Origin: Chloroflexota bacterium
GTDB taxonomy: Bacteria; Chloroflexota; Limnocylindria; Limnocylindrales; CSP1-4
Direction of reading: 5' to 3'
Assembly (NCBI GenBank): GCA_021802825.1
Contig: JAJZRG010000009.1
Span: forward strand, 10,010 to 74,009
Length of the DNA stretch: 64,000 bases
Position 1 is the stretch's first letter, and each line of letters begins with the position of its first letter. Positions 2,374-60,103 of the stretch are shown piece after piece. The translations under genes and the position numbers were made by a program. The notes beneath the pieces are model-generated. The model ran no database searches, had not been told where the DNA came from, and saw only the letters and a list, made by a program, of their open reading frames with translations.

Positions 2374-2400
2374 CTCACCCCTGTTTCACCTTGCGCTCAG
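2374..2400 (+). promoter_or_regulatory. Phased YTCA-N7 array (x3) upstream of LysM-M23 peptidase
   Basis: CTCA 2374, TTCA 2385, CTCA 2396: exact 11-bp spacing, sense to the gene starting at 2486. Confidence 0.5.
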
Positions 2401-8726: not shown

Positions 8727-8886
8727 CAGCGCTGCTCCACTCCGCGAGGATCGCCCGCGAGAGACCGCACGAACCCCCGGCGCGTTGCCTGCGGCTACGG
8801 GGCTGGCCATATCTGCCGTCTCCTGTTGCGATGCCCGGCCCTCATTGGCCCATGCCGGAGTTCACCGCTCGGGGCTGAATCCCTGA

Positions 8887-8912
8887 TGAGCGCGGTCTGA
8901 GCGATCCATGAG
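8887..8912 (-). promoter_or_regulatory. Phased YTCA-N7 array (x3) upstream of the Ig-like/M50-like/CsoR-like/cupredoxin operon
   Basis: Top-strand TGAG at 8887, 8898 and 8909 (CTCA on the coding strand of the minus-strand operon). Confidence 0.5.
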
Positions 8913-9147: not shown

Positions 9148-9173
9148 TGAGCGCAGCATGAGTCCATGCTGAG
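9148..9173 (-). promoter_or_regulatory. Phased YTCA-N7 array (x3) with no obvious downstream ORF
   Basis: Top-strand TGAG at 9148, 9159 and 9170. About 150 nt downstream (minus sense) lies the 13-bp-stem hairpin 8960..8995. Confidence 0.4.
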
Positions 9174-11483: not shown

Positions 11484-11714
11484 CTACCCATGGTGGGCGT
11501 GGCCGGCGCGGTCGTGGTCGGCGTGGTCGTGGGTGAGCGGTTCCGACGTGGCCCAGCGATCCGGGTCCTGGCGGAAGGTCGCCGCACAGGCGGGCTCGCA
11601 GAACCAGTACGTGGTTCCTCCGTGAACGACGGATGCGGATCCTCCCCGCGCAACCTTCATCCCGCAGACGGGGTCGGTTGCGAGGTGGTCCTGGCGATGG
11701 TCGTGTGCGTGCAT
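11484..11714 (-). CDS. YHS-domain metal-binding protein with His-rich termini
   Basis: MHAHDHRQDHLATDPVCGMKVARGGSASVVHGGTTYWFCEPACAATF...HDHADHDRAGHAHHG. Canonical DPVCGM...Y.FC..C..F YHS pattern. Confidence 0.85.
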   Translation of the reverse strand: MHAHDHRQDHLATDPVCGMKVARGGSASVVHGGTTYWFCEPACAATFRQDPDRWATSEPLTHDHADHDRAGHAHHG

Positions 11715-11736: not shown

Positions 11737-12024
11737 TCAAGCGTCGACCGGTCGGCCGGCGTGATAGCCGGCCCGGTGGATCACCCGCATCAGCGTCCAC
11801 GCGTCCACGACGCCCGCATCGCCCCGCACATACGCGGTCTCGGTGGCAGGGTTCACGTACACGCTGCGGACGCCGGGTACGGCTGCCAGCGCGCGCTCGA
11901 GCGTCGTCGCGCCGGCCCCGCCGCATCCGAGGCCGAAAACCGGGATCCTCAACTGAAGCGAACCGTCCATGGACCCGATGGTCGCCCGCCAGGCTGAGAG
12001 CCAGGTGAGCCTCTCGTGAGACAT
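11737..12024 (-). CDS. Degenerate HMA-like domain protein (GLGCGGAG in place of GMTCxxC)
   Basis: LQLRIPVFGLGCGGAGATTLERALAAVPGVRSVYVNPATETAYVRGD follows the HMA beta-alpha-beta-beta-alpha-beta pattern with only one Cys. Alternative start ATG 11970 (MDGSLQL). Confidence 0.5.
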   Translation of the reverse strand: MSHERLTWLSAWRATIGSMDGSLQLRIPVFGLGCGGAGATTLERALAAVPGVRSVYVNPATETAYVRGDAGVVDAWTLMRVIHRAGYHAGRPVDA

Positions 12025-15222: not shown

Positions 15223-15248
15223 TGAGGGCGGGATGAGCCCCGGCTGAG
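15223..15248 (-). promoter_or_regulatory. Phased YTCA-N7 array (x3) upstream of DoxX copy 1
   Basis: Top-strand TGAG at 15223, 15234 and 15245. Confidence 0.5.
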
Positions 15249-23864: not shown

Positions 23865-24023
23865 CTAGACGTAGTCGTCCGGCGACTCGCGGAAGCTGTC
23901 GGCGCAGTCCTGGCTGCAGAAGTAGTACGTGGTGCCGTTGTGCTCGATGGATGTGACCGCCTCCGACGGGCGGATCTTCATCCCGCAGACGGGGTCGGTC
24001 ACGGGCTGGTCGTTCTCAGGCAT
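23865..24023 (-). CDS. YHS-domain protein (52 aa), first gene of the complex-I-like operon
   Basis: ORF 23865..24116, ATG 24023 (MPENDQPVTDPVCGMKIRPSEAVTSIEHNGTTYYFCSQDCADSF). The stop lies 3 nt before the nuoA start. Confidence 0.8.
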   Translation of the reverse strand: MPENDQPVTDPVCGMKIRPSEAVTSIEHNGTTYYFCSQDCADSFRESPDDYV

Positions 24024-24084: not shown

Positions 24085-24110
24085 TGAACGCCACCTGAGC
24101 GTACGATGAG
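24085..24110 (-). promoter_or_regulatory. Phased YTCA-N7 array (x3) upstream of the YHS / complex-I-like operon
   Basis: Top-strand TGAA 24085, TGAG 24096, TGAG 24107. Lies 62-87 nt upstream of the YHS start at 24023. Confidence 0.5.
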
Positions 24111-32947: not shown

Positions 32948-32973
32948 TGAGCCCGGGCTGAACGTGTGCTGAG
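32948..32973 (-). promoter_or_regulatory. Phased YTCA-N7 array (x3) upstream of the multicopper oxidase
   Basis: Top-strand TGAG 32948, TGAA 32959, TGAG 32970. Lies 52-77 nt upstream of ATG 32896. Confidence 0.5.
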
Positions 32974-34668: not shown

Positions 34669-34694
34669 TGAGATCCGAATGAGTCGCGGCTGAG
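34669..34694 (-). promoter_or_regulatory. Phased YTCA-N7 array (x3) upstream of the ICMT-like methyltransferase
   Basis: Top-strand TGAG at 34669, 34680 and 34691. Confidence 0.5.
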
Positions 34695-37911: not shown

Positions 37912-37948
37912 CTCAGGTGTTGCTCACGCTGGCTTCAGGGTGGGCTCC
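37912..37948 (+). promoter_or_regulatory. Phased array (x4) upstream of the htpX-psp operon
   Basis: CTCA 37912, CTCA 37923, TTCA 37934, CTCC 37945. Lies 45-81 nt upstream of ATG 37993. Confidence 0.5.
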
Positions 37949-48385: not shown

Positions 48386-48411
48386 TGAGTGGCGGCTGAG
48401 CCGAACCTGAG
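48386..48411 (-). promoter_or_regulatory. Phased YTCA-N7 array (x3) upstream of oleate hydratase
   Basis: Top-strand TGAG at 48386, 48397 and 48408. Confidence 0.5.
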
Positions 48412-51253: not shown

Positions 51254-51357
51254 TCGCGCGGCCAGCTGAGCGCGCCATGATCTCCCCGACCGCCCCGATT
51301 CGTAACACCTGTTCAAGGGACGGACAATCTCCCCACAGAGAGCCAGTGGAGCACGCC

Positions 51358-53892
51358 GTGACCAGCCGTGTGTTTGAGGCCGGAGGCCTCCTGCGAGCGA
51401 GCAGCAGCGGAGGGCTCGAGGCATACCTGAAGCGCCAGAGCGGCATTGCGGAGGCGGAGGCGAACCCCGTCTCGCAGACGGTGACCGTCCGCTACGACGA
51501 ATCGATCCTGGAGGCCGACGATGTCCGGGCGCTGATCGAACGCTTCGGATGCTCGTGCGGTGGCGAGGTCGTCCCGTGCCACATCTGCCGCAATGAGCAG
51601 CCCGCGGTCATCGGAAGCGCCGTGCCTCGCGGCGCGACGCAGGTGCCGGCGGCGGGGCACGCGGGCCACGTGATGCCGACGTCGGTCGCTCCAGCACCGC
51701 CGCTCGATCGAGCAGTTGGGCACGACGGTCACGACATGATGGTCGCGCCCGCCGTCGAGCAGGCGGCTCACGCGATGGCGGTCCCGGCCGCCACCGAGCA
51801 CGCCGGTCACGCGATGCAGGTGCCAGGAGCCGCCGCACCGGCCCGGGGCGAGATGGCGCAGATGGCCCACGCGATGGGTCACGGCGGCGGGATGTCAATG
51901 GACGACATGGTGCGCGACATGCGGAAGCGGTTCCTCGTCGCGCTCGTCCTCGCGATCCCCATCTTCCTCTACTCGCCACTGGCGACCGAGGTCTTCGGCA
52001 TCCGACTCGCGACGCCATTCGGCATCGATCCGAACGTTCTGATGTTCCTCCTCGCGACGCCCGCCGTCGCCTGGAGCGGCCAGATCTTCTTCGTGGGGGC
52101 CTGGCGGGCGCTGCGCAACCGGACGCTCGACATGTCCGTCCTCGTCGCCCTCTCGGTCGGCAGCGGCTACCTGTTCAGCGTGGCCGCCACGTTCCTGTTC
52201 GCAGGCGAGGTGTTCTACGAGGCCTCGGTCGTGCTGCTGGCCTTCGTCCTGTTCGGCCACTGGCTCGAGATGCGGGCGCGGGCCGGCGCGTCCGATGCGA
52301 TCCGGGCCCTGCTCGACCTCGCGCCGCCCAAGGCGACCGTCATCCGGAACGGCGAGCCAGTCGAGGTCCCAACCGCCGAAGTCGTCCTCGACGACACAGT
52401 GTTGATCCGCCCCGGCGACAAGGTTCCCGTCGATGGCATCGTCCTCGAGGGTGCCTCGGCCGTCGACGAGTCGATGATCACCGGCGAGAGCGTCCCAGTC
52501 GAGAAGACGGTCGGCTCCAATGTGATCGGGGCGACGATCAACAAGACCGGCACCTTCCGGTTCCGGGCGACCAAGGTCGGCTCCGACACGGCCCTCGCCC
52601 AGATCGTCAAGCTCGTCCAGCTGGCCCAGAACTCCAAGGCACCTGCCCAGCGCCTGGCCGATCGGGCCGCGCAATGGCTCGTGGCCGCGGCTGTCGCCTT
52701 CGGCCTTCTGACCTTCGCCGGCTGGTACTGGCTCGGCGGCGCGACGTTCGTCTTCGCCCTGACCCTCGCGATCACGGTCGTCATCATCGCCTGCCCGGAT
52801 GCGCTGGGCCTGGCGACCCCGACCGCGATCATGGTCGGGACCGGCCTCGGCGCCCTCAACGGGATCCTGTTCAAGAACGCGACCGCGCTTGAGCAGGCGT
52901 CGAAGGTCGGCGCGGTGATCTTCGACAAGACGGGCACGCTCACGGTTGGCCAGCCAAGGGTTGTCGACGTCGTGGCCAGCTCCAGCCGGGTCATCGAGGA
53001 AGAGCTTCTCCGGCTCGCCGCGTCCGCCGAGGCGTCCAGCGAGCATCCGCTCGCGTCGGCCGTCGTCGACGCCGCGAAGGAGCGCGGGCTCGCCGTCGTC
53101 GATGCGCGCGACTTCAACGCCGTCCCTGGCCATGGGCTCGAGGCGAAGGTCGACGGCCGAGTCGTGGTTGTCGGGAACACCAAGCTGATGCGCGACCGCG
53201 CGATCGACTTCGGAGAACTCGGGGCCCGGGCGGATGAACTCGAGGGCGCCGGGCGCACGGTGGTCCGGGTCGCCGTCGACGGTGTGGCCGCCGGACTCGT
53301 CGCGATCGCCGACTCGCTGCGGCCCACCGCGAAGGAGACGATCGAGCGTCTCCACAACCTCGGCATTCAGGTCGCGATGCTGACCGGCGACAACCGGGCC
53401 ACCGCCGATCGGATCGCCGCGGAGCTCGGGCTCGACACGGTCTTCGCCGAGGTCCTGCCCGGCCAGAAGGCCGACAAGGTCAAGGAGCTGCAGAGGGCTG
53501 GGAAGCTCGTGGCGATGGTCGGCGACGGCATCAACGACGCGCCTGCGCTCGCCCAGGCGGACGTCGGCATCGCGATCGGCGCCGGGACCGACGTCGCCGT
53601 CGAGACCGCCGACGTCGTGCTCATGAAGAGCGACCCGGTCGACGTCCTGGGTGCGATCGCGCTGTCCCGCGCGACGGTCCGGAAGATGCGCCAGAACCTG
53701 TGGTGGGCCGTCGGCTACAACACGATCGCCTTTCCCATCGCTGCCGGGCTCTTCTATCCGTCGCTCGGCCTGCTCCTGCGGCCCGAGATCGCGGCGATCA
53801 GCATGGCCGGCAGCTCGTTCCTCGTCGCGGTCAACGCGCTGCTCCTCAAGCGCACGAGGCTCGAAGGGATCCGCCGCTATGGCAAGCAGTGA
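51358..53892 (+). CDS. P1B-type heavy-metal ATPase with Cys-less HMA, His/Met-rich linker and CPD transmembrane motif
   Basis: ORF from 51277, but third-position GC is low until GTG 51346/51358 (GGAG SD before 51358). [25 protein letters not shown]....P and MAGSS motifs. TM4 reads IIACPDALG (codons tgc ccg gat). N-terminal [22 protein letters not shown] is HMA-like without CxxC. Confidence 0.9.
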
Positions 53893-55210: not shown

Positions 55211-55926
55211 CACCCAGGGACAGGCCTGGCTTCACGCCGACGGCCGTCGCTGTCGTCGCGTTCGGCGTCGCCTTCGGCTACGTCGAGGCGGCCGTGGTCG
55301 TCTACCTCCGCGCCGCCCTCGAGCTCGCTCCCGGGGCGGTCATGGCACAGAGTGTCGGCAGCTTCGGGACGTTCGAGGCCGTCGAGATCGCGCGCGAGCT
55401 GGCGACGCTGGCCATGATCGCGGCCGTCGGCACGCTCGCCGGGCGGACCCGGCTCGAGCGCCTCGCCTGGGCGGCGGTCGTCTTCGGCGCATGGGACATC
55501 GTCTACTACGTCGGCCTGCGCCTGGCCATCGGCTGGCCGCTGACCTTGGACTCGTGGGACGTCCTGTTCCTGGTCCCGACCCGCTGGGTCGGTCCCGTGT
55601 GGGCGCCGCTCGTCGTCACCGCGGCGCTCGTCGGGGCCGGGCTCGCGGCAGCCCGGCGCCTGCGGGCCGGGAGCCAGATTGCCGTGGGGCCTGTCCGGGC
55701 GACCGGCGCCCTCGCGGGCGGCCTCCTCGTCATCCTGAGCTTCCTGCTTCCCAACCAGGGCGGCTCGGGGCAATGGACCGCCTGGCCGGTCTTCTGGGTG
55801 GGCATGGCGCTCGCGGTTGTCGCAACGACGAGCGCGCTCACCGCTCGGCCGGGTGTTCCTTCGGATGGGGGCATGCCCTCCCAGCACGGATCCGGGCGCC
55901 GGCCGCTGGCCGGCTCCCCGGACTGA
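55195..55926 (+). CDS. Hypothetical polytopic membrane protein
   Basis: GTG 55195 overlaps the cfa-like end. 243 aa, 6-7 TM helices. No recognised motif. Confidence 0.45.
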   Translation: MVAGLTPRDRPGFTPTAVAVVAFGVAFGYVEAAVVVYLRAALELAPGAVMAQSVGSFGTFEAVEIARELATLAMIAAVGTLAGRTRLERLAWAAVVFGAWDIVYYVGLRLAIGWPLTLDSWDVLFLVPTRWVGPVWAPLVVTAALVGAGLAAARRLRAGSQIAVGPVRATGALAGGLLVILSFLLPNQGGSGQWTAWPVFWVGMALAVVATTSALTARPGVPSDGGMPSQHGSGRRPLAGSPD

Positions 55927-56089
55927 TCTCAATCCACCCGGCAAGGAGGTTGTCGACACGGCCTGGCGTCGGAGCGCCCGCATCCGTCCGATCGCGATCG
56001 CGATGACCGGGGTCATAACCGCGGTCGCGGTGGGCGTCATCACAGGGCGACAGGCGGCCCGGCTGTCCGCCTACGCCACGGTACGCCAG

Positions 56090-57025
56090 TCAGCCTCGGC
56101 CCGTGAACTCGACCGCGGGGCTCGCCTCGCGGCGAAGTGAGAGGAGCCCGATCCCGGCAAGCATGGCCGCGATCCCGGCATATTCGATTGGCTGCGGACG
56201 GTCGCCGGTCAGGATCCCGGACACGACGCCGACCACGGGAACCAGAAAGAGCGCGGCCCCCAGGCCTACCAGCGAGACCTGCTTCAGCAGCCAGAACCAG
56301 ACAACATAGGCGACACCCGTTCCGAGGACACCGAGGACGAGCAGCCCGAGAAGGGTCGCTGGCGACCAGTCCAGACTCGCCCATGGTTCGAGCAGCGCAC
56401 TGACCCCGAGGAGGATCGCGCCACCGAGCAGGAACTGGACGCTCGTCGTCAGGAGCAGGTCGACGCTCGACCCGAGCCGGCGCATGAGGAGCGTTCCGCC
56501 GGCTGGCGCTGCCGTCGCGAGCAGGGCCAGGGCTACGCCGTCCGGACTCGTGGCGCCTGAGCTCGTCGTTGCGACCATGACGACGCCCGCCATCGCGATG
56601 GCCAGGCCCGTCGCCGAGCGCCCCGAGATTCGTTCCCCGAAGAAGGCCCAGCCCGCTGCCGCGAGGACGACCGGTTGGCCTCCGGCCAGGATCGACGCGA
56701 CCGCTGCCTCCGCCCGCCCGGCCGCAAGGTACATCGCGCCGAACGCCACGGTGGCGTTCGCCAGGGCCAGGGGGATCACCAGACGCGTTGAAGGCAGACC
56801 CGATCTCCAGGGCCTCCAACCGAACGACCCTATCCCCGATCGTCTGGCTCGCTCGGGCCGCCGGGTGAGGAGGGCCCAGGAAGCGAGAACCGCGCCACCG
56901 ATCAGTGCCCGCAGCCCCGCCAGCAACAGAGGAGCCGGGGCCGGCAGTGACGCCTGGATGATCACGAAGCACAGCCCCCAGATGGCCGCCACGAACGCGG
57001 CCAGTCCTGCCGATCGAGCGGTCAT
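56090..57025 (-). CDS. EamA/DMT-family transporter
   Basis: ORF 56090..57115, ATG 57025 (MTARSAGLAAF), ATGA overlap with the YHS-EAL stop. 10 TM helices, duplicated EamA-like halves. Confidence 0.75.
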   Translation of the reverse strand: MTARSAGLAAFVAAIWGLCFVIIQASLPAPAPLLLAGLRALIGGAVLASWALLTRRPERARRSGIGSFGWRPWRSGLPSTRLVIPLALANATVAFGAMYLAAGRAEAAVASILAGGQPVVLAAAGWAFFGERISGRSATGLAIAMAGVVMVATTSSGATSPDGVALALLATAAPAGGTLLMRRLGSSVDLLLTTSVQFLLGGAILLGVSALLEPWASLDWSPATLLGLLVLGVLGTGVAYVVWFWLLKQVSLVGLGAALFLVPVVGVVSGILTGDRPQPIEYAGIAAMLAGIGLLSLRREASPAVEFTGRG

Positions 57026-58014
57026 TCCCTCGGGGCTCGCGGGGGCCGCTCTCCATTGAGGCCGAATGACCGGGCGCGGACGCGGTCGATGCCAGGGGCG
57101 GTGGCCAATGGCCATGGTCGACCGGGACGACCGACGGCATGCCCCTGGACGAGCATGTCCCGGCCGGCCCGAATCAGCAGATCCAGGTCGTCGAGGCGTT
57201 CGACGCCCTCGGCCACGAGCTGGGCACCGATCTCACCGACGAACGTCGCCATCGCCCGGACGAGCGCCTGGCGGGCATTGTCCCCGGTGAGGCCGCGGAT
57301 GATGCGCGCGTCGAGCTTGACGAAGTCCGGCGCAAGCTCCGTGATGTGGCGCATTGACGCGTACCCAGCGCCAGCGTCGTCGATCGCGATCCGGAAGCCT
57401 CGCGTTCGGTAAGGCTCGACCGCGGCGCGCAGGGCCTCGTAGTCAGCGACCTCGTCGCGTTCCGTCAGCTCCAGAACGAGCCGACGTGGCGTCACCGGAG
57501 TGGCAGCGAGCACAGCGGCGATCCTGGGATCCGCAAGCAGCAGCGGGCTCACGTTGAGCGACATGAAAGCGTCCGCCTCCGGAAGCCGACGCCCCGCGAC
57601 CTCGAGCTCCGTCGCGAGCGCGAGCGCCTCGAGCTCCGGCGCCAGGCCCGCCCGGGCTGCGAGCTGGAACCAGGCCTCCGGAGATTGGAGCGGGATGGGC
57701 GCGAACCTCGCCAGCGCCTCGTACCCGACGACCGCGCGGGTCTCGAGTGACACGATCGGCTGAAACGCGGGTCGGAGCAAATCCGGTCCGTCGAGCACGC
57801 GGCGGACGAGCTCCTCCGCCCGAGCCTCCTCATGCTGGGGGCCGCCGCCGAGGAACTCGTCGCGGTAGCCGCGCGAACAGAAGAAACGGAGCCGACCCTC
57901 GTCCTCAAGCGTGACCGAGCGCTCTCGATCGACTGCCATCCCGCAGACGGGATCGATGGCGATTGCTTCACCCTTGAAGGGCGATGGCTCGGTGGCTGGA
58001 GGAGGAGTCTTCAT
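57022..58014 (-). CDS. YHS-domain / EAL-domain fusion protein (putative metal-responsive c-di-GMP phosphodiesterase)
   Basis: ORF 57022..58260, ATG 58014 (MKTPPPATEP). N-terminus IDPVCGMAVDRERSVTLEDEGRLRFFCSRGY (YHS). EAL motifs then follow: GYEALARF, SLNVSP, LELTE, IDDAGAGYAS, VKLD, AEGVE, VQGHAVGRP. Confidence 0.8.
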   Translation of the reverse strand: MKTPPPATEPSPFKGEAIAIDPVCGMAVDRERSVTLEDEGRLRFFCSRGYRDEFLGGGPQHEEARAEELVRRVLDGPDLLRPAFQPIVSLETRAVVGYEALARFAPIPLQSPEAWFQLAARAGLAPELEALALATELEVAGRRLPEADAFMSLNVSPLLLADPRIAAVLAATPVTPRRLVLELTERDEVADYEALRAAVEPYRTRGFRIAIDDAGAGYASMRHITELAPDFVKLDARIIRGLTGDNARQALVRAMATFVGEIGAQLVAEGVERLDDLDLLIRAGRDMLVQGHAVGRPGRPWPLATAPGIDRVRARSFGLNGERPPRAPRE

Positions 58015-58064
58015 CGAGGCGCCTGAGGAGAACGGGTGACTGGATCCACGATCGGCCGACCGCC

Positions 58065-58090
58065 TGAGATGCACCTGAACGCCCCATGAG
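58065..58090 (-). promoter_or_regulatory. Phased YTCA-N7 array (x3) upstream of the YHS-EAL / EamA operon
   Basis: Top-strand TGAG 58065, TGAA 58076, TGAG 58087. Lies 51-76 nt upstream of ATG 58014. Confidence 0.5.
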
Positions 58091-58265
58091 GACGGGCCAA
58101 CGCCCAGGCCGGTGGTTGGCGGCGCCGTCCCGGTCGGCGCGGGACCGGCCCATGCCGATGAACGACAGGCTGTGTAGTATAGGCACGCACGGCCCGTCGC
58201 TCTTGTTCTCGGCGGGCCGCCGAATTCTGAAGCCCGCCCACCAGCCCCGGATGGAGGCACTTACC

Positions 58266-58472
58266 ATGATCCGATTTCTTCGGTTGAGCTCCGTCGTACT
58301 GACTATTGTCGTTTCGCTCGTCGTTCCGGCAGCCGTCGCAGCATCGGATTCCGGGGCCTCGTACGGCGCCTGCGTGTCGATGCATGCGACGACGATGGGC
58401 GGCTTCAGCGGCGATCACAACCCCGGTATGCACCAGGGCTTCTCAAACTGGCCGGGCTGCACTGGTGCCTAA
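58266..58472 (+). CDS. Small secreted Met/His-rich protein (68 aa)
   Basis: ATG 58266 with a GGAGG SD 8 nt upstream. Signal peptide MIRFLRLSSVVLTIVVSLVVPAAVAA. Mature part SDSGASYGACVSMHATTMGGFSGDHNPGMHQGFSNWPGCTGA. Confidence 0.5.
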   Translation: MIRFLRLSSVVLTIVVSLVVPAAVAASDSGASYGACVSMHATTMGGFSGDHNPGMHQGFSNWPGCTGA

Positions 58473-58527
58473 CGCGATCTTCGGCGCGGCGATCCGCTGA
58501 CCATGCTCGCACCCGAGACGGTCGACG

Positions 58528-59703
58528 GTGTCCTCCCGACAGACTAGAGGCTCCCGGCGGGGTCGTGGTCGAACGGGGAGTCAGGTCGGGACCAAGCCGC
58601 ACGCACCGATCCTGCCCGCGGCCTCGGCCGCGGACGGAGACGGTGCCCCCCAAGCTGGCGTCGACCCGGATCCGGAACCGGCCGCCATCGTCGTCTCGTA
58701 CTGCTTCGAGGCCGGGCCGGCAGACGGCCCTCGGTACGACGCGACAATCCGTATCACGGGTCAGCGCCGAGGCGTCGATCCAAGGCGATCCGGCATCGGC
58801 GACAGTTTCGTTCGGTCTGAGATGGTCACCGGCGTGGCTCCCGGTTCCGGGCGCGTCTCCGTGACCAGTTGGGTCTACGGGATCGCTCCGGGCGACTGGG
58901 ACGTCAGCGCGGAGCTCGTTGGGCCCGAGCGCGCCCGCCAGGCGAACGCCGGCGGGCGACTGCCGCGCGCACGTTGGTCGTGGCGGCGCTGGGCGGTGGA
59001 ACCGGGGCCTGAGACCCCTGTCCCGACGCGGTGGGCGCTCGTCGCACCACTGGCGGCCAGTCCTGGCGTCGTGCCGGGCAGCTTCACCGTCCTCGCGGCG
59101 GTGGCGCTGGCGACGGCGGTTGGGCTGCAGCCAGCGTTCCTGGCGCATCACGGCATTGACGTCGGGCGCGCCCTCCTGGCCTCGCTCGCCGGTGTTGCCC
59201 TGGGGCTGATCGGGGCGAAGGCGTGGTACGTGGCCCTGAAGGGCCTCAGCCGACAGAACTTGCGTGAGGGCTGGTCGGTTGACGGCTTCCTGGTCACGGC
59301 GCCCCTGGCTGCATCGGCCATCGCCCTGTTGATTGGCGAGCCGCTTGGCGCGTTCCTGGACGCCGTGGCACCGGGTCTGTTCGTCGCGGTTGCGATCGGC
59401 AGGATCGGCTGCTTCCTGACCGGCTGCTGCGCTGGGCGAACGACATGTGGCCTGGGCATCTGGTCGTCGGACCGGCGCGTGGGGGCTCGCCGGATCCCGA
59501 CACAACTGATGGAGTCCGTGGTCGGGGCCGGCCTCGCGACCGCTGCTGGGGTAGTCGTGGCTGCTCACGTGGCGTTCGGAATGGGCCTTGTGTTCGTGAC
59601 GACGGTTCTGCTGTACGCCATGGCGCGCCAAGGGCTCCTACGCCTGCGCGCGGAGTCACGGCCGTTCTCTTGGAAACGCGCTGCGTCAGCTGCCCGACCG
59701 TGA
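58528..59703 (+). CDS. Lgt-family membrane protein with about 170-aa N-terminal extension (copy 2)
   Basis: 391 aa, colinear with 10257..11450 over its full length (for example IVVSYCFEAGPADGPRYDATIRITGQRRG vs LVVSHRFDPGPGGAPPYTATIRLTGRRRG). Also GRIGCFLTGCCAGRTTCGLGIWSSDRRVGARRIPTQLMES. Confidence 0.7.
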   Translation: MSSRQTRGSRRGRGRTGSQVGTKPHAPILPAASAADGDGAPQAGVDPDPEPAAIVVSYCFEAGPADGPRYDATIRITGQRRGVDPRRSGIGDSFVRSEMVTGVAPGSGRVSVTSWVYGIAPGDWDVSAELVGPERARQANAGGRLPRARWSWRRWAVEPGPETPVPTRWALVAPLAASPGVVPGSFTVLAAVALATAVGLQPAFLAHHGIDVGRALLASLAGVALGLIGAKAWYVALKGLSRQNLREGWSVDGFLVTAPLAASAIALLIGEPLGAFLDAVAPGLFVAVAIGRIGCFLTGCCAGRTTCGLGIWSSDRRVGARRIPTQLMESVVGAGLATAAGVVVAAHVAFGMGLVFVTTVLLYAMARQGLLRLRAESRPFSWKRAASAARP

Positions 59704-59791: not shown

Positions 59792-60103
59792 TCAGTGGCA
59801 GCCCCCGCGATGCCCTGTCGACTGGTCGGTTGCGGGGGTCGCCTGGTCGGCTTCGGCGCCGGTCGCCTGGCTCTCGGACGCCACGTCCTCACCCCCGTGG
59901 GCCTGGTGGCCGCCGTGGCCACCGTGACCGAACAGGTGCATGCCGATCATGCCCCCGAAGAGCCCAATCGACAGCAGTGTCGACGGCGTCACGATGCCGA
60001 GGTACAGGAGGGCGGCTGCGATCGCGGCTACGGCGAGCGCCGGGTACATCCAGCGTGGGCGGTTCGCGGCGCGCTGGCCCGTGTGATCTGCGTGCGTGAT
60101 CAT
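59792..60103 (-). CDS. Small His-rich membrane protein (DUF2933-like)
   Basis: ATG 60103 (MITHADHTGQ), ATGA overlap with the lgt stop. Two TM helices, then GMIGMHLFGHGGHGGHQAHGG and C-terminal HRGGCH. Confidence 0.6.
   Translation of the reverse strand: MITHADHTGQRAANRPRWMYPALAVAAIAAALLYLGIVTPSTLLSIGLFGGMIGMHLFGHGGHGGHQAHGGEDVASESQATGAEADQATPATDQSTGHRGGCH

What the first reader, a model, noticed from the sequence alone, without database searches (positions are those of the whole stretch)
57022..58014. YHS-EAL fusion: a metal-binding domain directly attached to a c-di-GMP phosphodiesterase
The N-terminal 50 aa contain IDPVCGMAV...RLRFFCSRGY, a YHS pattern in which the last Cys of CxxC is replaced by Tyr. 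The rest has all the EAL catalytic motifs I can recall: EAL, N, ExTE, DDxGxGYxS, KxD, EGVE, QG.

The gene is coupled by an ATGA overlap to an EamA transporter and is preceded by a phased YTCA array. I am not aware of a characterised YHS-EAL architecture. It would link copper or metal status to second-messenger turnover.
Basis: partly seen in the sequence, partly recalled or inferred. Interest (0 to 1): 0.65.

Follow-up and report, generated by a model that had tools for sequence, protein, structure and literature searches.

The report
Metal-finger (YHS) fused c-di-GMP phosphodiesterase
This gene encodes a c-di-GMP-degrading enzyme with a small cysteine-based metal-binding finger on its front end. 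The fusion is conserved in one group of uncultured soil Chloroflexota and probably couples copper status to second-messenger signalling, but this copy has lost one of the metal-binding cysteines.

Summary
Window 57022-58014 (minus strand) encodes a 330-aa cytoplasmic protein: a YHS/TRASH treble-clef module (aa 18-55), a short linker, and an EAL domain (aa 80-297) with every catalytic motif intact. About 37 orthologues (60-93% identity) exist. All that could be placed come from Candidatus Limnocylindria / Chloroflexota metagenomes. The gene is followed by an EamA transporter in all 9 loci, and the neighbourhoods are rich in metal genes.

- The Tyr is not a family trait. All 36 full-length orthologues have D-x2-C-x21-C-x3-C. 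Only this window has C50Y, a single TGC>TAC change, and that change alone pushes the Pfam YHS score below threshold.
- The architecture is already auto-annotated in public databases. It also has a characterised analogue, the Cu2+-activated YHS-adenylyl cyclase of Mycobacterium phlei. I found no paper on YHS-EAL.
- The phased YTCA array is real but not specific to this gene. It is a lineage-wide, promoter-like 3 x 11-bp CTCA element: 15 copies in the window against about 0 expected.

Best reading: a one-component metal (probably copper) sensor phosphodiesterase. Metal binding and regulation are inferred, not shown. It is a new variant of a known kind, of moderate interest.

The parts
57022..58014 (-). 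YHS-EAL gene, 330 aa plus stop
   Evidence: ORF and translation. Pfam finds EAL and a sub-threshold YHS. About 37 orthologues exist.
57850..57963 (-). YHS/TRASH treble-clef module (aa 18-55), with predicted ligands D21, C24, C46 and position 50
   Evidence: Pfam YHS matches aa 20-55. The AF2 N-terminal model has pLDDT 86, with strands, a hairpin and a helix. Foldseek top hits are L24e and the YHS region of toluene/o-xylene monooxygenase hydroxylase. Ligand assignment is by analogy to PMC4626032.
57865..57867 (-). Codon 50, TAC (Tyr), where all relatives have TGC (Cys): the third Cys of the TRASH motif
   Evidence: In alignment A1, C50 is Cys in 36 of 36 full-length relatives. DNA alignment with L088 shows a single G>A change. 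In-silico Y50C raises the YHS score from 23.5 to 31.7 bits.
57124..57777 (-). EAL domain (aa 80-297) with a complete catalytic set
   Evidence: Pfam 161.4 bits. It aligns to active EAL phosphodiesterases in the PDB. Foldseek gives E = 1e-16 to PA0575, MorA, YkuI, MucR and others.
56090..57025 (-). EamA/DMT transporter gene; its start overlaps the EAL stop (ATGA)
   Evidence: Pfam EamA, E = 1.7e-28. NCBIfam 2A78/YedA-like matches fall below their cut-offs. The pairing is conserved in all 9 loci examined.
58065..58090 (-). Three 11-bp-phased YTCA units (CTCA-N7-TTCA-N7-CTCA), a lineage-wide promoter-like upstream element
   Evidence: Conserved upstream of orthologues in L001-L004 and L088. Consensus and statistics.
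58048..58053 (-). Inferred -10 hexamer GATCGT, with A and T at +13 and +17 after the third CTCA. The predicted 5' UTR is about 27 nt.
   Evidence: A-N3-T at this fixed distance occurs in 11 of 15 arrays in the window and is conserved across 36 sites. This is an inference; no transcription start was mapped.
58266..58472 (+). Divergent 68-aa gene: signal peptide plus a Met/His/Cys-rich mature part (context)
   Evidence: ORF translation. No Pfam or NCBIfam hit. A 68-aa gene sits at the same position in L088.
51277..53892 (+). P1B-type heavy-metal ATPase with a His-rich N-terminus and an unusual CPD (not CPC) motif in TM4 (context)
   Evidence: Pfam E1-E2_ATPase, Hydrolase and a weak HMA. NCBIfam TIGR01511, copper type, 615 bits against a cut-off of 397. 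Motifs.
60928..61542 (-). Cupredoxin_1-domain protein (context)
   Evidence: Pfam PF13473, E = 4e-13. Also present in L088.

Best explanation
The gene encodes a soluble one-component signalling enzyme. An N-terminal YHS/TRASH treble-clef module is joined by about 6-8 residues to the first helix of a catalytically competent EAL c-di-GMP phosphodiesterase.

In the family, the YHS module offers the ligand set D21-x2-C24-x21-C46-x3-C50. I infer that it binds a soft metal, most likely copper. I further infer that binding changes the EAL domain's conformation or dimer geometry, and so its rate of c-di-GMP hydrolysis. The direction of that effect is unknown.

The enzyme is co-translated with an EamA-type exporter from a promoter of the lineage's usual type. 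In this window's copy the third cysteine is Tyr, which should weaken or retune metal binding. This allele may therefore be metal-blind or altered in specificity.

- **Shown:** domain identities, intact catalytic residues, conservation, gene order and the C50Y change.
- **Inferred:** metal binding, the identity of the metal, and regulation of phosphodiesterase activity.
For: - **EAL domain.** Pfam gives 161.4 bits. All catalytic residues are present and conserved. The domain aligns motif-for-motif with solved active EALs. Foldseek gives E = 1e-16.
- **YHS module.** All 15 family N-termini match PF04945. The four orthologues scored individually give 31.6-34.5 bits against a cut-off of 30.3. The AF2 model is confident (pLDDT 86). 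Its best structural neighbours are L24e (the TRASH prototype) and the YHS region of toluene/o-xylene monooxygenase.
- **Selection.** 104 columns are at least 95% conserved among relatives, including D21, C24, C46 and C50. The window deviates only at position 50.
- **Context.** EamA follows in all 9 loci examined. The neighbourhoods repeatedly hold small YHS proteins, an ABC ATPase with a C-terminal YHS, HMA, Nramp, a copper-type P1B ATPase, cupredoxin and cytochrome oxidase.
- **Shared module.** The ABC ATPase's YHS is the same subtype as the EAL's (...DPVCGMAVERERAVS...FFCSRGCREEFLG). This points to a module shared between the two proteins, and possibly a shared ligand.
- **Domain position.** The nearest non-YHS EAL relatives carry GAF, PAS or REC sensor domains at the same position.
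- **Precedent.** In the M. phlei adenylyl cyclase, a YHS domain joined by an 8-aa linker gives Cu2+-specific, EDTA-reversible activation. Its proposed ligands are D178, C181, C204 and C208 (PMC4626032).
Against: - No metal-binding or enzymatic data exist for any member.
- The window copy lacks one predicted ligand, and its YHS match is below Pfam's cut-off.
- Foldseek E-values for the 48-aa module are not significant (0.16-1).
- YHS in toluene monooxygenase binds no metal in crystals (PMC4626032), so a YHS fold does not guarantee metal binding.
- The metal is not defined by context. Nramp and the atypical CPD-motif ATPase leave Mn, Fe or other metals open.
- No GGDEF cyclase was seen in the window or the Limnocylindria loci examined, so c-di-GMP synthesis in this organism is unverified.
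Confidence: 0.55

Rival explanations
1. The YHS module is a structural zinc ribbon or a protein-protein docking module. It could dock to other YHS proteins, the EamA transporter or a metallochaperone. On this reading it is not an allosteric sensor, and the phosphodiesterase is constitutive or controlled only at transcription.
For: TRASH-clan members such as L24e and MYM/zf-FCS fingers use the fold structurally or for interactions (hits; PMC4047054 title and abstract). YHS in toluene monooxygenase has no bound metal or known regulatory role (PMC4626032). The window allele tolerates C50Y while every other conserved position stays intact.
Against: The module sits where GAF, PAS and REC sensors sit in the nearest EAL relatives. 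The D/C/C/C set is conserved in 36 of 36 full-length orthologues. The only biochemically tested YHS fused to a nucleotide-signalling enzyme behaves as a Cu2+ switch (PMC4626032).
Confidence: 0.25
2. The three cysteines act as a thiol redox switch. Disulfide formation, or metal release on oxidation, reports oxidative or thiol stress rather than metal level.
For: Three conserved, closely spaced cysteines. The neighbourhood includes DoxX, FAD oxidoreductases and cytochrome oxidase.
Against: In the M. phlei enzyme, Cu2+ activation was reversed by EDTA, which argues for binding rather than oxidation. The metal-gene context here is much stronger than any redox context.
Confidence: 0.1
3. The Tyr50 codon is a sequencing or assembly error, or a rare, mildly deleterious polymorphism. 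It has no functional meaning, and the organism really has the canonical Cys.
For: It is a single G>A transition relative to the 98%-identical stretch of L088. All 36 full-length relatives have Cys. Other metagenomic members show isolated odd residues in the same motif: DPGCGM in P0009, DLVCGM in P0017, DPVCRM in P0027.
Against: Nothing in the window suggests poor sequence quality here. The reading frame is intact, and the rest of the protein matches all 103 other conserved columns.
Confidence: 0.2
4. The EAL domain is a catalytically inactive c-di-GMP receptor, or it acts on another substrate.
For: No diguanylate cyclase was found in the sequence examined. Some stand-alone EALs in the PDB hit list are described as broader cyclic-dinucleotide phosphodiesterases (6ifq).
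Against: All residues that distinguish active from degenerate EALs are present and conserved: EAL, R, N, ExxE, DD, K, E and Q, plus a DDAGAGYAS loop 6.
Confidence: 0.05

Closest known systems
YHS-domain class IIIc adenylyl cyclase of Mycobacterium phlei (MpAC; Linder 2015, PMC4626032)
   Same: A roughly 50-aa YHS module with D-x2-C-x22-C-x3-C is fused by a very short linker (8 aa) to a nucleotide second-messenger enzyme that works as a dimer. Cu2+ at 1-10 uM switches the enzyme on. Zn, Fe, Cr, Co and Ni do not. The YHS domain is required.
   Different: In MpAC the YHS is C-terminal and the enzyme makes cAMP. Here the YHS is N-terminal and the enzyme degrades c-di-GMP. The hosts are Actinobacteria versus Chloroflexota. 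The window copy lacks the last Cys.
Sensor-domain EAL phosphodiesterases (GAF-EAL, PAS-EAL, REC-EAL such as RocR/PvrR, BLUF-EAL BlrP1)
   Same: The layout is the same: an N-terminal sensor followed by a stand-alone active EAL. These are the nearest sequence relatives of the EAL part, at 45-58% identity, and they share the EAL fold.
   Different: The sensor is a 38-residue Cys-based treble clef rather than a ligand-binding or phospho-acceptor domain. I found no YHS-EAL characterised in the literature.
TRASH-domain metal regulators (archaeal CopR and Lrp-TRASH) and YHS domains of Cu-ATPases
   Same: The same clan and Cys motif, and the same association with copper resistance genes (papers listed; PMC4626032).
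   Different: In those proteins the output is DNA binding or transport, not second-messenger turnover.
Other metal-linked c-di-GMP enzymes: the CZB zinc-regulated cyclase DgcZ (my own knowledge, not checked here), the copper-recognising CHASE4 protein PA14_37690 (PMC13277305), and the metal-induced EAL Mrp/Urf2 of mer transposons (PMC6629876)
   Same: Metal status feeds into c-di-GMP levels.
   Different: The sensing modules differ (CZB four-helix bundle, periplasmic CHASE4), or regulation is purely transcriptional (Mrp). None uses a cytoplasmic YHS/TRASH finger.

Membership tests
EAL domain c-di-GMP phosphodiesterase (PF00563) | Profile match above Pfam's gathering score | tested here: met
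   161.4 bits against a cut-off of 31.3, aa 80-297
EAL domain c-di-GMP phosphodiesterase (PF00563) | Catalytic and metal-binding residues of active EALs: Q, E(AL), R, N, ExxE, DD, K, E(GVE), Q(G) and loop 6 | tested here: met
   Q85, E99, R103, N154, E182, E185, D212, D213, K233, E269, E272 and Q290 are present. All are at least 90% conserved in A1 and align to the same motifs in PA0575 and a V. cholerae EAL. The residue list itself comes from established knowledge of RocR and TBD1265.
EAL domain c-di-GMP phosphodiesterase (PF00563) | EAL (TIM-barrel-like) fold | tested here: met
   AF2 pLDDT is mostly 85-97 in the domain. Foldseek gives E = 1e-16 to 1e-13 against more than 40 EAL structures.
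EAL domain c-di-GMP phosphodiesterase (PF00563) | Hydrolysis of c-di-GMP to pGpG | not testable with these tools
   Needs an enzyme assay.
YHS domain (PF04945) / TRASH clan | Profile match above Pfam's gathering score (30.3 bits) | tested here: not met
   The window protein scores 18.4 bits full-length and 23.5 bits as an isolated segment. Orthologous segments score 31.6, 33.5 and 34.5 bits, and the in-silico Y50C window segment scores 31.7 bits, so all of those pass. The family is a member; this copy falls short by one residue.
YHS domain (PF04945) / TRASH clan | Ligand motif D/C-x2-C-x19-22-C-x3-C | tested here: not met
   The window has D21, C24 and C46 but Y50. All 36 full-length relatives have C50.
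YHS domain (PF04945) / TRASH clan | Treble-clef fold: knuckle, beta-hairpin and a short helix | tested here: inconclusive
   The model has strands 4-6, 13-15, 20-24 and 27-31 and helix 34-40, with pLDDT 86. Top Foldseek hits are L24e (probability 0.87-0.93, TM 0.57-0.66) and the toluene/o-xylene monooxygenase YHS region. E-values are only 0.16-1 for so short a query.
YHS domain (PF04945) / TRASH clan | Binds a transition metal | not testable with these tools
   Needs ICP-MS or spectroscopy.
Copper-switched YHS second-messenger enzymes (MpAC type) | Enzyme activity changes on metal binding to YHS | not testable with these tools
   The support is analogy to PMC4626032.

The most novel reading that the evidence does not exclude
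The Limnocylindria YHS-EAL is a direct cytoplasmic copper-gated c-di-GMP phosphodiesterase, which would make it the first YHS/TRASH-controlled c-di-GMP enzyme. It shares one YHS subtype, and therefore one metal signal, with a MacB-type ABC exporter ATPase. The same metal would then tune export and second-messenger level post-translationally and in parallel. The window's C50Y allele would be a naturally retuned or desensitised sensor.
Probability: 0.3. Interest if true: 0.6.

Novelty: new variant of a known kind. Interest (0 to 1): 0.42.

Why it matters
c-di-GMP enzymes are known for their range of sensor domains, yet direct cytoplasmic metal inputs are few. YHS/TRASH domains are very common but almost untested: one biochemical study is held in the library. 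A YHS-EAL would give a simple enzymatic read-out for what YHS domains bind. It would also show how a 40-residue finger can control a neighbouring catalytic domain. And it would show that abundant, uncultured soil Chloroflexota couple metal stress to second-messenger signalling. The natural C50Y allele and its 93%-identical Cys counterpart form a ready-made ligand-mutant pair for that test.

Tried and rejected
- **Rfam.** A scan of 55900-58600 at E <= 1 gave no RNA family, so the conserved upstream element is not a known riboswitch or leader.
- **Apparent N-terminal coverage in Proteobacteria.** Several genome hits from Stutzerimonas, Azoarcus and others seemed to cover query residues 23-24 onward. 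Translation showed they are GAF-EAL proteins aligned through a chance CCF motif, not YHS-EAL. L007 and L015 are long PAS/GAF-type proteins, also not YHS.
- **L006.** The tblastn match had joined the C-terminal YHS of an ABC ATPase to the next gene. Separately, L006 does hold a divergent true YHS-EAL.
- **N-terminal profile search.** Searching the large protein database with the N-terminal profile returned only 32 small stand-alone YHS proteins. It could not list other YHS architectures.
- **Exhaustive representative search.** Only 2 of the top 150 EAL relatives cover the YHS part. More distant YHS-EALs would rank below the listed hits, so their absence elsewhere is not proven.
- **PDB sequence search.** Nothing matched the N-terminal 65 residues.
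- **GGDEF motif scans.** No cyclase turned up in the window or the Limnocylindria loci. The only hit was in a Chloroflexia MAG, L080.
- **OmpR/PhoB-type box.** I first considered the YTCA array a gene-specific OmpR/PhoB-type response-regulator box. I rejected it as gene-specific because the same array precedes about 15 unrelated genes in the window.
Full report
**1. What is at the coordinates**

The minus strand of window 57022-58014 carries an ORF of 330 codons plus a stop, starting MKTPPPATEPS.... Four orthologues start at the same MKT, which supports the ATG at 58014 over the longer GTG-initiated ORF.

Pfam gives a strong EAL match: PF00563, 161.4 bits, cut-off 31.3, aa 80-297. It also gives a weak YHS match: PF04945, 18.4 bits, cut-off 30.3, aa 20-55.

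An AlphaFold model built on the family alignment has mean pLDDT 82 and pTM 0.79. It matches more than 40 EAL structures at Foldseek E = 1e-16 to 1e-13.

The downstream gene starts at the ATG at 57025-57023, which overlaps the TGA at 57024-57022. It encodes a 311-aa EamA/DMT transporter. The factual part of the finding is therefore confirmed. One small correction: the cysteine spacing is C-x3-C, not CxxC.

**2. The family, and what is special about this copy**

A search of the 5.8-billion-protein collection found about 37 proteins of 60-93% identity that cover both parts. Almost all have precomputed Pfam YHS+EAL. All come from metagenomes or MAGs.

In one genome per GTDB species, only two loci carry the YHS part: L005, a Candidatus Limnocylindria MAG, and L006, a 'Chloroflexi bacterium' MAG. 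Apparent N-terminal coverage in Proteobacteria proved to be GAF-EAL proteins. In an exhaustive HMM search of 1.84 billion 50%-identity representatives, only 2 of the best 150 EAL relatives extend over the YHS part. Within the reach of these searches, the fusion is one tight family confined to Limnocylindria/Chloroflexota.

In the alignment, D21, C24, C46 and C50 are conserved. Position 50 is Cys in all 36 full-length relatives and Tyr only in the window.

Of the 104 columns that are at least 95% conserved among relatives, the window deviates at that one position alone. The gene is not decaying.

At DNA level the difference from the closest relative is a single TGC>TAC transition. That relative is L088, which has the same gene order and is 98% identical over the 271 nt compared.

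Reverting Y50 to C in silico raises the Pfam YHS score of the isolated segment from 23.5 to 31.7 bits, above the 30.3 cut-off. Orthologous segments score 31.6-34.5 bits.

The 'Tyr variant of the YHS pattern' is therefore an allele-specific loss of one predicted ligand, not a property of the architecture.

**3. Is the N-terminal module YHS/TRASH?**

All 15 representative N-termini hit PF04945, with a best E of 1e-9. Weaker hits go to other TRASH-clan families: TRASH_HVO_1752_C, zf-FCS and ATPase-cat_bd.

A model of the 48-aa segment is confident, with pLDDT 86. It shows short strands, a beta-hairpin and a helix that begins at the C-x3-C.

Its best structural neighbours in the PDB are ribosomal protein L24e, the TRASH prototype, at probability 0.87-0.93 and TM 0.57-0.66. 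Next comes the YHS region of toluene/o-xylene monooxygenase hydroxylase at 28-30% identity. E-values are only 0.16-1, as expected for so short a query. Sequence search of the PDB found nothing for this part.

I file the family's module as YHS/TRASH. The window copy is a member by descent that fails two formal criteria, the Pfam score and the full Cys motif.

**4. Genomic context**

The YHS-EAL gene is followed by EamA in all 9 loci examined: the window, L001, L002 (contig cut shortly after the start of the downstream gene), L003, L004, L085, L086, L087 and L088. The starts and stops overlap by 4 nt in 6 of the 8 related loci and in the window.

The surroundings vary but are repeatedly metal-related:
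- small stand-alone YHS proteins;
- a MacB/FtsX-type ABC system whose ATPase ends in a YHS domain, preceded by an HMA protein;
- Nramp and MerR;
- a P1B ATPase with a cyclopropane-fatty-acid-synthase-like gene;
- Lgt, a cupredoxin-like protein, and in one case cytochrome oxidase subunits.

In the window itself the set is:
- the P1B ATPase at 51277-53892 (NCBIfam copper subfamily TIGR01511, 615 bits against 397);
- CMAS;
- an uncharacterised 243-aa ORF;
- EamA and YHS-EAL;
- a divergent 68-aa secreted Met/His/Cys-rich protein;
- two Lgt paralogues;
- a Cupredoxin_1 protein.

The YHS of the ABC ATPase is the closest relative of the EAL's YHS:
- ABC ATPase: ATDPVCGMAVERERAVSAERNGETFFFCSRGCREEFLG
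- YHS-EAL: AIDPVCGMAVERPRSVSLEHKGRLQFFCSRGCRDEFLG

The stand-alone YHS proteins in the same loci are clearly more distant. This suggests one module subtype was shuffled between two effectors in this lineage. The two effectors may then share a ligand.

**5. How it most likely works**

*Shown*
- The protein is soluble, with no signal peptide or membrane segment visible in the sequence.
- A Cys-based treble-clef module sits where GAF, PAS or REC sensors sit in the nearest EAL relatives.
- About 6-8 residues (LG-x-G-P-x-x-E) connect it to the conserved first helix of the EAL domain.
- The catalytic site is intact.

*Precedent*
The M. phlei class IIIc adenylyl cyclase carries a YHS domain on an 8-aa linker. 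Cu2+ at 1-10 uM switches it on. Zn, Fe, Cr, Co and Ni do not. EDTA reverses the effect, and the isolated catalytic domain does not respond. The proposed ligands are one Asp and three Cys at the positions conserved here (PMC4626032).

*Inferred*
In the Limnocylindria enzyme the YHS finger binds a soft metal, most likely copper. That binding alters EAL dimer geometry or activity, so metal load changes c-di-GMP. The direction of the effect cannot be predicted.

The co-translated EamA exporter is part of the same response, but its substrate is unknown. It is only distantly similar to the YedA and cysteine/O-acetylserine exporter families.

In the window's allele, Tyr50 removes a thiolate. Two Cys plus Asp could still hold Cu(I), but affinity or selectivity should change.

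**6. Rivals**

- The finger may be structural or a docking module, with no allosteric sensing.
- It may act as a thiol redox switch.
- The Tyr codon may be a sequencing error or a rare polymorphism.
- The EAL may be a receptor rather than an enzyme. This is unlikely given the intact site.

None of these is excluded by computation. Each is listed with its refuting experiment.

**7. The 'phased YTCA array'**

The array is real: CTCA-N7-TTCA-N7-CTCA at 58090-58065 (minus strand), about 50-75 nt upstream of the ATG. It is conserved upstream of orthologues that are only about 70% identical at protein level. But it is not specific to this gene.

- *Abundance.* The triple pattern occurs 15 times in the window against 0.01 expected.
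- *Phasing.* Pairs at 11-bp spacing occur 36 times against 2.7 expected. Pairs at 10 or 12 bp are at background, 4 and 3.
- *Lineage.* The pattern occurs in L001-L006, which are Limnocylindria/Chloroflexota loci, and in none of 78 other loci fetched.
- *Consensus.* Over 36 sites it is tCTCAGg-N4-gCTCA-N7-CTCAG, followed at +13 and +17 by a conserved A-N3-T. That is the spacing of A(-11) and T(-7) in a -10 hexamer. Eleven of the 15 window arrays have it.
- *Leaderless cases.* In several sites an ATG or GTG lies exactly 23-24 nt after the array, 6-7 nt after that T, which is the geometry of leaderless mRNAs. One of these coincides with an independently called gene start, at L001 3674.

I read the array as a lineage-typical promoter architecture, or as the site of a global factor. 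The CTCA units are centred near -48, -37 and -26. This does not match the usual -35 hexamer register. It says nothing specific about metal control of the YHS-EAL operon, but it may be the more unusual feature of this window. No Rfam family matches the region.

**8. Comparison with what is known, and novelty**

The EAL part is an ordinary member of the EAL family. The YHS part is an ordinary member of the YHS/TRASH family.

The fusion is already auto-annotated: Pfam domain lists carry it, and JGI product names mention it. No paper in the held library mentions YHS together with EAL or c-di-GMP in a relevant way.

Metal inputs into c-di-GMP signalling are known through other modules: a copper-recognising CHASE4 domain (PMC13277305), the transcriptionally metal-induced EAL Mrp (PMC6629876), and the zinc-sensing CZB domain (my own knowledge, not checked here). 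A YHS-controlled cAMP enzyme is known as well. I therefore rate this a new variant of a known kind. It is a sensible and testable prediction rather than a surprise.

**9. Verdict**

- Interest is moderate, 0.42.
- The finding gains most from three results: the Tyr is a unique allele at a predicted ligand, the same YHS subtype is reused on an ABC ATPase, and the upstream array belongs to a lineage-wide promoter-like signal.

Noticed in passing
window 2374-2399(+), 8876-8912(-), 9148-9173(-), 11995-12020(-), 15223-15248(-), 24085-24110(-), 32948-32973(-), 34669-34694(-), 37912-37937(+), 48386-48411(-), 58065-58090(-), 62668-62693(-), 62739-62764(+), 63470-63495(+); also L001-L006, L085-L087: Three 11-bp-phased YTCA units recur upstream of many unrelated genes, co-oriented with them: 15 in the window against 0.01 expected. 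The 11-bp spacing is specific (36 pairs against 2.7 expected; 10 and 12 bp are at background). A conserved A-N3-T follows at +13 and +17, like a -10 element. The pattern occurs only in the Limnocylindria/Chloroflexota loci, with zero copies in 78 other loci. It looks like a lineage-specific promoter architecture or a global factor site, with units near -48, -37 and -26, off the usual -35 register.
   Followed up: partly
window 37962(+), 63519(+), 62645(-), 11971(-), about 61628(-); L001 3674: At several arrays an ATG or GTG lies exactly 23-24 nt after the third CTCA, 6-7 nt after the inferred -10 T. That geometry implies leaderless mRNAs. One case matches an independently called gene start, the HMA protein in L001.
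   Followed up: partly
window 51277-53892(+); L001 15264-17765; L087 6185-8779: The P1B-type ATPase has a His-rich N-terminus and the copper-type YN(x4)P and MxxSS motifs. Its TM4 reads [11 protein letters not shown] (CPD instead of CPC or CPH), and this is conserved in three loci. A second ATPase in L006 has the normal CPC. This may be an undescribed P1B subtype. It is always adjacent to a CMAS-like methyltransferase gene.
   Followed up: partly
window 23865-24023(-) and about 11484-11714(-): Two further small YHS proteins with the full D-x2-C...C-x3-C motif. One is 52 aa. The other is about 76 aa with His-rich ends (MHAHDHRQDH... and ...HDHADHDRAGHAHHG). A CTCA array lies upstream of each; for the second, another short ORF lies between the array and the gene.
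   Followed up: partly
L001 6133-7026, L004 1852-2820, L086 2298-3215, L006 around 8013: In related loci, a MacB/FtsX-type ABC system (preceded by an HMA protein in L001 and L002) has an ATPase ending in a YHS domain of the same subtype as the EAL's, about 70% identical over 38 aa. This suggests one metal-sensing module is shared by two effectors.
   Followed up: partly
window 58266-58472(+): A divergently transcribed 68-aa ORF has a signal-peptide-like N-terminus and a Met/His/Cys-rich mature part (...GACVSMHATTMGGFSGDHNPGMHQGFSNWPGC...). It has no family match, and a 68-aa gene sits at the same place in L088. It may be an extracytoplasmic metal-binding peptide.
   Followed up: no
window 58528-59703(+) and 60100-60915(-): Two Lgt (prolipoprotein diacylglyceryl transferase) paralogues lie next to the operon. 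One carries an extra N-terminal region of about 185 aa with no family match. Lgt recurs near YHS-EAL in L086, L087 and L088.
   Followed up: no
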